In this document: in pieces, positions 605 to 1,012 of the stretch | Position numbering within the stretch: the stretch's first letter is position 1 | Layout: the number at the start of each line of letters is the position of its first letter | DNA from: a virus | Lineage: Duplodnaviria; Heunggongvirae; Uroviricota; Caudoviricetes | Length of the DNA: 4,439 nucleotides | Direction: 5' to 3' (one strand) | Virus record (IMG/VR): IMGVR_UViG_3300029157_000003 | Notes under the pieces: model-generated | What the model was told of the DNA's origin: nothing | Database searches by the model: none | The model's input: the letters and a program-made list of their open reading frames with translations, nothing else | Position numbers and translations under genes: made by a program

Positions 605-1012
605 ATGAACGAGAAAACTTTAGGTCAACGCATTAGAGAAAGACGTAAGCAGGTAGGCTTAAGTCAAAACGGTTTAAGCAAAGCTGCTGGCGTATCTGGC
701 TCATCAATTTCATTATGGGAAAGTGACCATACAGCCCCGCGCGGGCAAAATTTGCATCGCCTCGCCGAGGTATTGCAATGTTCACCAACCTGGATACTGT
801 TTGGCGACGAGGACAAAACACCAGCTCCCCCTGTTTCACTCGATAGTACCCTAGACTTATCGGAAGATGAGTTAGAGATGCTGCGTTTGTATCGCGCACT
901 TCCTAAATCAGAGCAACAAGCACAACTCAGCGAACTCCGCGCCCGCGTTGAGAATTTTAATCGCCTGTTCACCGAGCTATTAGAGGCTCGCAAACGCAAC
1001 AAGCATCAATAA
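605..1012 (+). CDS. XRE-family HTH transcriptional repressor (prophage immunity repressor, RacR-like position); 135 aa from ATG 605, alternative upstream start ATG 554
   Basis: ORF 554..1012 in the track. Translation from 605 begins MNEKTLGQRIRERRKQVGLSQNGLSKAAGVSGSSISLWESDHTAP, a canonical N-terminal XRE/Cro-CI HTH. The C-terminal ~70 aa are helical and charged (LSEDELEMLRLYRALPKSEQQAQLSELRARVENFNRLFTELLEARKRN) with no S24 peptidase Ser/Lys motif. Divergent from the Cro-like gene. No clear SD before either start, so it may be near-leaderless. Confidence 0.8.
   Translation: MNEKTLGQRIRERRKQVGLSQNGLSKAAGVSGSSISLWESDHTAPRGQNLHRLAEVLQCSPTWILFGDEDKTPAPPVSLDSTLDLSEDELEMLRLYRALPKSEQQAQLSELRARVENFNRLFTELLEARKRNKHQ

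What the first reader, a model, noticed from the sequence alone, without database searches (positions are those of the whole stretch)
605..1012. Immunity repressor lacks a LexA-like autocleavage domain
The protein has an N-terminal XRE HTH, but its C-terminal half is a charged helical segment with no Ser/Lys peptidase (S24) signature. Induction would therefore not proceed by RecA-stimulated self-cleavage. That implies either a non-SOS-inducible, locked-in prophage module as described for Rac, or control by a separate antirepressor.
Basis: partly seen in the sequence, partly recalled or inferred. Interest (0 to 1): 0.4.

Follow-up and report, generated by a model that had tools for sequence, protein, structure and literature searches.

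The report
DicA-type prophage repressor, no self-cleavage domain
The gene is a variant of the well-studied E. coli prophage repressor DicA, which is already known to lack the self-cleaving half of classical phage repressors and to be switched off by a small antirepressor protein (Rem), so the finding is correct but ordinary.

Summary
Window 605-1012 (+) encodes a 135-aa repressor. It matches NCBIfam's DicA model end to end (239 bits, cutoff 101) and is 57% identical to E. coli K-12 DicA.

Residues 1-72 are homologous to the DNA-binding domain of P22 C2. The remainder is a Pro-rich linker and two predicted helices.

No Peptidase_S24 domain was found in this protein, in 44 aligned relatives, or in the precomputed Pfam lists of the 120 best database homologs. 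P22 C2, run as a positive control, scored 110 bits.

It has been in the literature since 1988, according to Ragunathan et al. 2023. In that paper DicA is relieved by the antirepressor Rem and also flips spontaneously, without RecA, in a switch with DicC. DicA was grouped with the uncleaved Gifsy repressors in 2011.

The closest complete genome carries rem (94% identical to K-12 Rem) about 6 kb from this gene. A complete 45-kb phage, HannyBb, carries the same repressor (99.3%) together with rem. The short repressor therefore does not by itself mean the prophage is locked in.

The protein shows no detectable similarity to RacR.

What this copy adds is modest. It is a different immunity type of Qin, with its own operators (ATTGAGTTTTCTCAAT), on a roughly 700-bp swapped cassette.

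The parts
605..1012 (+). dicA-type immunity repressor gene, 135 aa. HTH domain is residues 1-66 (nt 605-802). Pro-rich linker is residues 67-86 (nt 803-862). Two C-terminal helices are residues 87-133 (nt 863-1003).
   Evidence: NCBIfam DicA 239 bits against a cutoff of 101. Pfam HTH_3 and no S24. 57% identical to K-12 DicA. AF2 model with pLDDT 86. PGAP CDS at the same coordinates in L001.
300..527 (-). dicC, the Cro-like partner of the switch, 75 aa, transcribed divergently. The mechanical ORF extends to a TTG at 554.
   Evidence: NCBIfam DicC 164.7 bits against a cutoff of 130, aligned to residues 10-84 of the 84-aa ORF. Pfam P22_Cro E 4.5e-16. 70% identical to K-12 DicC. PGAP CDS at L001 20300-20527.
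1..316 (-). 5' part (first 105 codons) of a YdaT-family / CII-like gene downstream of dicC, cut by the window edge.
   Evidence: Pfam YdaT_toxin: E 8e-4 for the fragment and 26.1 bits against a cutoff of 21 for the full 173-aa protein in L001. PHROG 163 'CII-like transcriptional activator' E 2e-40.
540..555 (.). Operator-like palindrome ATTGAGTTTTCTCAAT, next to the -10 of the dicC promoter-like site. It occupies the position of K-12 operator Oc.
   Evidence: Exact palindrome TTGAG-N4-CTCAA with two more copies near the leftward-operon promoter. 3 matches at <=3 mismatches against 0.64 expected; 6 of 200 shuffles reach 3. K-12 Oc (TTGTTAGTCATAACTAACAA, PMC3441716) lies at the equivalent place. 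DicA binding here is inferred, not tested.
554..583 (-). Promoter-like site for dicC (TTGACT-18-TAGCAT).
   Evidence: Consensus scan, 9 of 12 matches. This is a consensus match only.
1077..1128 (+). dicBp-like promoter (TTGACG-17-TAAATT, 1100-1128) bracketed by two operator copies: 1077-1090 TTGAGTTTTCTCAT, and 1113-1126 on the minus strand, TTTAGTTTTCTCAT.
   Evidence: The arrangement mirrors K-12 dicBp with its TGTTAG...CTAACA-type repeats.
1205..1738 (+). ydfA (1205-1360, DUF1391), ydfB (1362-1490) and ydfC (1520-1738), the first genes of the DicA-repressed dicBF operon.
   Evidence: Pfam DUF1391 E 1.7e-28. PGAP names in L001. 98.6% DNA identity to K-12 Qin from position 1134 onward.
2081..2132 (+). 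DicF small RNA, the antisense inhibitor of ftsZ, encoded in the repressed operon.
   Evidence: Rfam RF00039, 76.7 bits against a gathering score of 48, E 2.5e-16, full length 1-52.
2274..2373 (.). Run of 100 N (assembly gap or mask). In the closed genome it stands for about 775 bp holding dicB, a DUF1482 (ydfD-like) gene and the first ~273 nt of the exonuclease gene.
   Evidence: The window flanks map to L001 20001-22273 and 23049-25114.
2374..4439 (+). Internal part of the prophage exonuclease gene (823 aa in L001), cut at both ends. Included as context only.
   Evidence: Pfam Rv2179c-like 3'-5' exonuclease domain E 3.8e-48. PGAP 'exonuclease' at L001 22776-25247.

Best explanation
This is the immunity repressor of a Qin-like lambdoid prophage: a different-immunity allele of E. 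coli DicA.

How it represses (inferred by analogy with K-12 DicA). Its P22-C2-like helix-turn-helix domain binds 14-16-bp palindromic operators (ATTGAGTTTTCTCAAT type). One lies at the divergent dicC promoter and two bracket the leftward promoter. Binding keeps dicC/ydaT-like and the ydfABC-dicF-dicB operon silent.

The C-terminal part. It is a Pro-rich linker plus a two-helix hairpin. The long helix carries an a/d heptad of Leu/Val/Phe (108, 111, 115, 118, 122, 125). This part most likely provides dimerisation and the surface for regulation. It has no protease fold, so the protein cannot self-cleave on activated RecA.

How repression is relieved. Release is expected by two routes shown for K-12 DicA: (i) the small prophage-encoded antirepressor Rem, and (ii) spontaneous or stress-driven (heat, urea), RecA-independent flipping of the DicA/DicC bistable switch.

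Shown here: the identity of the gene, the lack of S24, the predicted helical C-terminus, the operator repeats, the presence of rem in the same prophage or phage in related genomes, and the absence of a LexA box in front of rem.

Inferred: operator binding, dimerisation through the C-terminal helices, and that Rem acts on this allele.
For: Family and sequence.
- DicA family match end to end.
- 57% identity to K-12 DicA including the C-terminal helices, 29 of 49 positions.
- The C-terminal motif LPxSEQ...RARVxNFNxLFxELLxARKR is nearly invariant across 45 Enterobacterales homologs.
- No S24 in the protein or its family, with a working positive control.

Structure.
- AF2 gives a 5-helix HTH, a linker and two helices at pLDDT 86.
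- After the P22 C2 N-terminal domain, the best full-length structural neighbours are XRE repressors that are controlled by small protein antagonists: SinR/SinI 1b0n, and the arbitrium repressor-antirepressor complexes 9iaq and 9sf2.

Locus.
- Operator palindrome at the dicC promoter and two copies bracketing the leftward promoter, matching the K-12 layout (Oc validated in vivo in PMC3441716).
- DicF and ydfABC lie downstream, and dicB falls in the gap.

Antirepressor.
- rem is present in the same prophage in the closest genome (94% to K-12 Rem), in phage HannyBb (96%) and in SMS-3-5 (74%).

Literature.
- PMC10448788: Rem derepresses dicBp, and spontaneous switching is independent of recA and rem.
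- PMC3121763: Gifsy short repressors are not cleaved during mitomycin C induction and are bound by antirepressors; DicA is listed in that group.
Against: - rem is not in the window, and the window's own genome was not identified. The link rests on the nearest closed genome: 100% identical on the left part and 97.4% on the right.
- Rem was tested only against K-12 DicA, which is 57% identical to this allele. Cross-reactivity with this allele is an inference.
- No LexA box lies upstream of rem. The best site has 9 of 20 mismatches to the consensus in four loci. The SOS link established for the Gifsy antirepressors therefore cannot be assumed, and the physiological trigger is unknown, as PMC10448788 also states.
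- Dimerisation through the C-terminal helices rests only on a monomer model and a heptad pattern.
Confidence: 0.88

Rival explanations
1. Locked-in module. The repressor has no physiological inactivation route and simply keeps a dead prophage's toxic genes silent for good, as has been argued for RacR in Rac.
For: - In the closest closed genome the prophage is defective: the terminase small subunit and a tail gene are truncated and there are no head genes.
- There is no S24 domain.
- There is no LexA box in front of rem.
Against: - The same repressor (99.3%) is in phage HannyBb, a complete 45-kb genome with terminase, head, tail, lysis and integrase genes plus rem.
- The K-12 ortholog is relieved by Rem and flips spontaneously in about 1% of cells (PMC10448788). 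That paper also cites a functional temperate phage carrying dicA, dicC, dicBF and rem.
- The protein is not related to RacR.
Confidence: 0.07
2. SOS-inducible after all, indirectly. A LexA-controlled antirepressor, encoded in this prophage or another one in the same cell, inactivates the repressor after DNA damage, exactly as in Gifsy-1/-2/-3, phage 186 (Tum) or N15 (AntC).
For: - PMC3121763 shows this mechanism for the Gifsy short repressors, shows that antirepressors can act in trans between prophages, and lists DicA in the same group.
- Rem was found through PSI-BLAST searches seeded with the Gifsy antirepressor GfoA (PMC10448788).
Against: - The 216-bp hokD-rem spacer is almost invariant in four loci and holds no LexA-box-like site (best 9 of 20 mismatches).
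- In K-12, spontaneous and urea induction of dicBp did not need recA (PMC10448788).
- The window contains no CTG-N10-CAG site close to the consensus (best 10 of 20 mismatches).
Confidence: 0.2
3. The C-terminal half is a second DNA-binding (winged-helix, RovA/SlyA-like) module, as suggested for K-12 DicA in PMC3441716, rather than a dimerisation and regulation module.
For: - PMC3441716 reports sequence similarity between the DicA C-terminus and the N-termini of RovA and SlyA.
- 9 of 45 family members give weak MarR_2 hits (best E 0.005; location in the protein not reported).
Against: - The window protein has no MarR-family hit at E<=1.
- The model shows only two helices after the linker, with no beta wing.
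- There is no PDB sequence hit for residues 73-135, and the structural neighbours are XRE repressors with helical oligomerisation tails.
Confidence: 0.04

Closest known systems
DicA of the E. coli K-12 Qin (Kim) cryptic prophage, with DicC, the dicBF operon and the antirepressor Rem
   Same: - Same length (135 aa) and 57% identity over the full length.
- Above the cutoff of the NCBIfam DicA model.
- Same gene order: ydaT-like (ydfX remnant in K-12) <- dicC <-> dicA -> ydfA ydfB ydfC DicF dicB.
- Flanking DNA is 98% identical to Qin.
- rem is in the same prophage in the nearest closed genome.
   Different: - A cassette of about 700 bp (window 431-1133) is replaced. It covers the 5' part of dicC, the intergenic region, dicA and the leftward promoter.
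- The HTH helices 2-3 differ (9 of 19 identical).
- The operators are unrelated in sequence: ATTGAGTTTTCTCAAT here against TTGTTAGTCATAACTAACAA in K-12.
- This points to a different immunity specificity.
- The ydaT-family gene is intact here.
Gifsy-1/-2/-3 repressors (GfoR, GtgR/GftR, GfhR) with antirepressors GfoA/GftA of Salmonella (Lemire et al. 2011, PMC3121763)
   Same: - Short (about 136 aa) lambdoid repressors without the Ala-Gly / Ser-Lys cleavage apparatus.
- Not cleaved on induction.
- Inactivated by small antirepressor proteins encoded elsewhere in the same or another prophage.
- The paper names DicA as a member of this group.
   Different: - The Gifsy antirepressor genes are LexA-repressed. 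No LexA box was found upstream of rem, and the K-12 DicA switch flips without RecA (PMC10448788).
- Direct sequence comparison with the Gifsy repressors was not run here.
P22 C2 / lambda CI / LexA (XRE or winged HTH plus Peptidase S24 autocleaving repressors)
   Same: [quoted passage not shown]
- Same divergent repressor/Cro layout, with operators at a rightward and a leftward promoter.
   Different: - No S24 domain, no linker Ala-Gly and no Ser/Lys dyad.
- 135 aa against 216 aa.
- Therefore no RecA-stimulated self-cleavage.
RacR of the Rac prophage
   Same: - A short prophage repressor without an S24 domain, next to a Cro-like gene and a YdaT-family gene.
- Grouped with DicA by Lemire et al. 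(PMC3121763).
   Different: - No detectable pairwise similarity (BLASTP E 4.9).
- 158 aa against 135 aa.
- The YdaT-family proteins share only a 29-residue patch.
SinR/SinI of Bacillus subtilis and the arbitrium-phage repressor/antirepressor pairs (PDB 1b0n, 9iaq, 9sf2)
   Same: - Architecture: an XRE HTH followed by a short helical C-terminal module.
- Small protein antagonists control these repressors; 1b0n (SinR/SinI) and 9sf2 (repressor with AimX) are complexes of a repressor with such a partner.
- These are the best full-length Foldseek neighbours (E 5.6e-5 to 1.2e-3).
   Different: - 18-25% identity and large rmsd (8-9 A) over the full length, so this is only an architectural resemblance.
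- Different hosts and partners.

Membership tests
DicA family (NCBIfam NF007257, transcriptional repressor DicA) | Full-length match to the family model above its curated cutoff | tested here: met
   239.1 bits against a cutoff of 101, aligned 1-135 of 135. 57% identical to K-12 DicA.
DicA family (NCBIfam NF007257, transcriptional repressor DicA) | Divergently transcribed Cro-like dicC partner | tested here: met
   NCBIfam DicC 164.7 bits against a cutoff of 130. 70% identical to K-12 DicC.
DicA family (NCBIfam NF007257, transcriptional repressor DicA) | Sits upstream of the ydfABC-dicF-dicB operon, whose promoter carries repressor operators | tested here: met
   ydfA/B/C. DicF by Rfam at 76.7 bits. 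dicB falls in the N gap, as seen in L001. Operator copies bracket the promoter-like site at 1100-1128.
DicA family (NCBIfam NF007257, transcriptional repressor DicA) | Binds its operators, represses dicBp and dicC, and activates its own gene | not testable with these tools
   Shown for K-12 DicA only (PMC3441716, PMC10448788).
LexA / lambda CI / P22 C2 autocleaving repressors (Peptidase S24) | C-terminal Peptidase_S24 domain with a Ser/Lys dyad | tested here: not met
   No PF00717 hit at E<=1 for this protein or for 45 family members, and none listed for the 120 best homologs. The positive control P22 C2 scored 109.8 bits.
LexA / lambda CI / P22 C2 autocleaving repressors (Peptidase S24) | Ala-Gly (or Cys-Gly) cleavage site in the interdomain linker | tested here: not met
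   The only AG is at residues 28-29 inside the HTH. The linker at 67-86 is GDEDKTPAPPVSLDSTLDLS.
LexA / lambda CI / P22 C2 autocleaving repressors (Peptidase S24) | RecA-stimulated cleavage on DNA damage | not testable with these tools
   Needs a Western blot after mitomycin C. The Gifsy short repressors, with which Lemire et al. group DicA, are not cleaved (PMC3121763).
Gifsy-type short repressor / antirepressor systems | Repressor of about 135-150 aa without a cleavage motif | tested here: met
   135 aa and no S24. DicA is named in this group in PMC3121763.
Gifsy-type short repressor / antirepressor systems | Small antirepressor gene in the same or a co-resident prophage | tested here: met
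   Not in the window. rem is at L001 14195-14443 (94% to K-12 Rem), L002 34682-34930 (96%) and L005 5264-5524 (74%). Rem is an antirepressor of K-12 DicA (PMC10448788).
Gifsy-type short repressor / antirepressor systems | Antirepressor gene under LexA control | tested here: not met
   The best LexA-box-like site in the hokD-rem spacer has 9 of 20 mismatches in four loci. Only this spacer was examined.
Gifsy-type short repressor / antirepressor systems | Antirepressor binds the repressor and removes it from the operator | not testable with these tools
   Needs pull-down or EMSA with this allele and its Rem.
RacR family (Rac prophage repressor) | Sequence homology to RacR | tested here: not met
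   BLASTP against K-12 RacR: best E 4.9.
SinR-like repressors (XRE HTH plus helical oligomerisation hook bound by a small antagonist) | Structural match over both domains | tested here: inconclusive
   Foldseek 1b0n_A E 5.6e-5 over 113 columns, but rmsd 8.6 A and 25% identity. The model is of a monomer.

The most novel reading that the evidence does not exclude
Rem may be a cross-immunity antirepressor. It is 94-96% conserved across two of the loci carrying this allele and K-12 Qin, whose DicA (57% identical, unrelated operators) is of another immunity type; SMS-3-5, which carries a 90.9%-identical variant of this allele, has a Rem only 74% identical. Rem would recognise the nearly invariant C-terminal helical hairpin (LPxSEQ...RARVxNFNxLFxELLxARKR) rather than the variable DNA-binding domain. 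One Rem could then derepress several different-immunity Qin-like prophages in the same cell, in response to a non-SOS signal that has not been identified.
Probability: 0.4. Interest if true: 0.35.

Novelty: already known. Interest (0 to 1): 0.12.

Why it matters
It matters little beyond correct annotation. [quoted passage not shown] Knowing that it is a distinct immunity type sharing the Rem antirepressor with K-12 Qin could help in studying cross-talk between the many Qin-like prophages of E. coli. It also bears on the open question of what signal turns Rem on.

Tried and rejected
Rejected as a family assignment.
- LexA boxes: none near the consensus in the window or upstream of rem in four loci. 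The one good site in L001 (10992, 4 mismatches) lies at the start of a DNA methyltransferase gene, about 3.2 kb promoter-distal to rem, and was not pursued.
- RovA/SlyA-like winged helix in the C-terminus (PMC3441716): not supported by Pfam or by the model.
- PDB sequence search for the C-terminal half: no hit.
- A literature search for phage HannyBb found no paper. Its status as a viable phage therefore rests on the GenBank record alone (complete genome, host E. coli, source bird faeces).
- A repressor-Rem complex prediction could not be run, because the structure tool takes single chains from this window or from its database hits only.
- The longer 152-aa reading from the ATG at 554 was considered and rejected in favour of 605.

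Full report
**What is at 605-1012.** The + strand ORF from the ATG at 605 to the TAA at 1010-1012 encodes 135 aa. It matches NCBIfam NF007257 'transcriptional repressor DicA' over all 135 positions (E 1e-71, 239 bits, cutoff 101). Pfam finds only XRE-type helix-turn-helix models (HTH_3 at residues 10-64, E 2.5e-15). In the closed genome E. coli B-1109 (NZ_CP117971), whose sequence is 100% identical to window 1-2273, PGAP calls a CDS at exactly these coordinates. About 797 of 5426 complete E. coli genomes carry this allele at >=90% identity. An upstream in-frame ATG at 554 would give 152 aa and is used in some annotations, for example phage HannyBb. The DicA model, the family alignment and PGAP all favour 605.

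**Test of the observation.** The N-terminal 72 residues are homologous to the DNA-binding domain of the P22 C2 repressor. The PDB sequence match to 1adr has E 8e-16. Identity to full-length C2 is 47% and stops at residue 72. Foldseek superposes the model on 3jxb/2r1j at 0.8-0.9 A.

No Peptidase_S24 hit appears at E<=1 for this protein or for any of 45 aligned family members. None of the 120 best database homologs, which are 105-167 aa long and mostly 133-135, lists PF00717. As a positive control, full-length P22 C2 gave Peptidase_S24 at 109.8 bits over residues 87-208 in the same kind of scan. The only Ala-Gly dipeptide is at residues 28-29, inside the HTH.

The C-terminal 63 residues are 33% charged and Leu-rich. 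AlphaFold2 on a 45-sequence alignment (mean pLDDT 86.3) predicts a five-helix HTH (6-66), a Pro-rich linker (67-86), a short helix (87-98) and a long helix (101-133). Read directly from the sequence, L108, L111, V115, F118, F122 and L125 form an a/d heptad, as expected for a coiled-coil-type dimer interface. This segment is strongly conserved across Enterobacterales homologs (LPxSEQ...RARVxNFNxLFxELLxARKR).

**Context.** The window is the immunity region of a Qin-like lambdoid prophage.
- On the minus strand lie dicC (300-527; NCBIfam DicC 164.7 bits, P22_Cro E 4.5e-16) and the start of a YdaT-family / CII-like gene (1-316).
- Downstream of dicA lie ydfA, ydfB and ydfC (1205-1738) and the DicF small RNA (2081-2132; Rfam 76.7 bits against 48).
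- The 100-N run at 2274-2373 stands for about 775 bp that, in the closed genome, hold dicB, a DUF1482 gene and the 5' end of the exonuclease gene.
- The rest of the window is that exonuclease gene.

A palindrome ATTGAGTTTTCTCAAT sits at 540-555, next to the dicC promoter-like site. Two further copies (1077-1090 and 1113-1126) bracket a promoter-like site at 1100-1128. That makes 3 matches against 0.64 expected by chance. K-12 Qin has the same layout with a different sequence, TTGTTAGTCATAACTAACAA, which is the operator Oc validated in vivo by Yun et al. (PMC3441716).

A blastn comparison with K-12 Qin shows 98% identity on both sides (window 37-430 and 1134-2273). Only a 66-bp patch matches between 431 and 1133. 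This is a classic immunity-cassette swap. The repressor is 57% identical to K-12 DicA and DicC is 70% identical. This copy is thus a different-immunity allele of dicA/dicC in an otherwise Qin-like backbone.

**What is already known.** Ragunathan et al. 2023 (PMC10448788) state that DicA is 135 aa against 216 aa for P22 C2 and lacks the Ala-Gly bond needed for RecA-mediated cleavage, citing the 1988 description of the locus. They show that the Qin protein Rem, when expressed, derepresses dicBp. They also show that dicBp switches on spontaneously in about 1% of cells independently of recA and rem and with help from DicC, and that urea and high temperature induce it. Lemire et al. 2011 (PMC3121763) showed that the roughly 136-aa Gifsy repressors are not cleaved during mitomycin C induction and are inactivated by small LexA-controlled antirepressors. 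They name DicA and RacR as members of this group of short repressors.

**Is the antirepressor there?** rem is not in the window.
- In the closest closed genome it lies about 6 kb away in the same prophage (L001 14195-14443) and is 94% identical to K-12 Rem.
- Phage HannyBb (PP925841) is a complete 45-kb lambdoid genome with terminase, head, tail, lysis and integrase genes. It carries a repressor 99.3% identical to the window's and a Rem 96% identical to K-12's.
- SMS-3-5, with a 90.9%-identical dicA allele, has a 74%-identical Rem at the same position.

Rem is thus conserved across loci whose DicA differ greatly. That fits an inference that Rem targets the conserved C-terminal part of DicA, but nothing here tests it. 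I found no LexA box in the nearly invariant hokD-rem spacer; the best site has 9 of 20 mismatches. That spacer contains the hok terminator and a TTGAAG-17-TAGAAT promoter-like site. The SOS link of the Gifsy systems cannot be assumed, in line with PMC10448788, which says the signal for Rem is unknown.

**Locked-in or not.** In B-1109 the prophage is defective: the terminase small subunit and a tail gene are truncated and there are no head genes. In that genome it cannot make phage, whatever the repressor does. The same immunity module in a complete phage genome shows that the short repressor is compatible with a normal temperate life cycle. So does the functional phage with dicA/dicC/dicBF/rem cited in PMC10448788. 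'Locked-in' is not implied by the repressor's architecture. I could not find a paper on HannyBb, so its viability rests on the database record.

**Rac.** BLASTP of this protein against K-12 RacR finds nothing (E 4.9). The YdaT-family proteins share only a 29-residue patch.

**Structural neighbours.** After the P22 C2 N-terminal domain, the best full-length Foldseek hits are SinR in complex with SinI (1b0n) and recently solved arbitrium-phage repressor/antirepressor structures (9iaq, 9sf2). All are XRE repressors with a short helical C-terminal module that a small protein antagonist engages. The rmsd is large (8-9 A), so I treat this as architectural resemblance only. The suggestion that the DicA C-terminus resembles the RovA/SlyA winged helix (PMC3441716) is not supported by Pfam or by the model.

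**Verdict.** It is wrong to lean on Rac and on 'locked-in'. The whole matter is already known for DicA. The modest new detail is that this copy is a distinct immunity type with its own operators on a roughly 700-bp cassette, paired with a Rem nearly identical to K-12's.

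Noticed in passing
window 2274-2373: The 100-N run is not length-true. In the closed genome it replaces about 775 bp that hold dicB (the MinC-dependent division inhibitor), a DUF1482/ydfD-like gene and the first ~273 nt of the exonuclease gene. The main toxic cargo controlled by the repressor is therefore invisible in the window.
   Followed up: yes
window 2081-2132 (+): A full-length DicF small RNA (Rfam RF00039, 76.7 bits) lies in the long untranslated stretch between ydfC and the gap.
   Followed up: yes
window 431-1133 against flanks 37-430 and 1134-2273: Sharp mosaic boundaries. The flanks are about 98% identical to K-12 Qin, while the 5' part of dicC, the operators, dicA and the leftward promoter are replaced. 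This is an immunity-cassette swap. The ydfA and ydfB products in the closest genome carry the same RefSeq protein accessions as those in K-12.
   Followed up: partly
window 554-604: An in-frame ATG at 554 would give a 152-aa form and is the start used in the HannyBb annotation and in several database entries of 150-153 aa. Gifsy-3 GfhR has a similar second in-frame AUG that is used during induction (PMC3121763). No clear Shine-Dalgarno sequence precedes either ATG. A TAAGAT at 590-595 could be a -10 element giving a near-leaderless dicA mRNA, like lambda cI from PRM. This is speculative.
   Followed up: no
L001 14444-14660 (hokD-rem spacer); the same region in L002, L003 and L005: The spacer upstream of rem is almost invariant in four otherwise mosaic prophages. 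It holds the hok terminator hairpin and a TTGAAG-17-TAGAAT promoter-like site, but no LexA box. What turns rem on is unknown.
   Followed up: partly
L001 10992-11011: The best LexA-box-like site in the prophage (AACTGGATATTTTTACAGTA, 4 mismatches to the consensus) overlaps the 5' end of a DNA methyltransferase gene in the late region. It is not near rem or dicA.
   Followed up: no
window 2374-4439 (+): The large 'exonuclease' gene (823 aa in L001) combines three parts: a region weakly similar to the middle of RecE/exonuclease VIII (NCBIfam 284 bits, far below the 1269 cutoff), a CxxC...CxxC zinc-ribbon-like patch, and a C-terminal Rv2179c-like 3'-5' exonuclease domain (E 3.8e-48). This part of the window is only 97.4% identical to B-1109 and 91.8% to HannyBb, against 100% and 98.7% for the left part. 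That points to another mosaic joint inside or near the gap.
   Followed up: no
L003 8254-8532 (K-12 ydfX): The K-12 pseudogene ydfX next to dicC is the remnant of the YdaT-family / CII-like gene that is intact in this window's prophage type. Window 37-430 matches it at 98%.
   Followed up: partly
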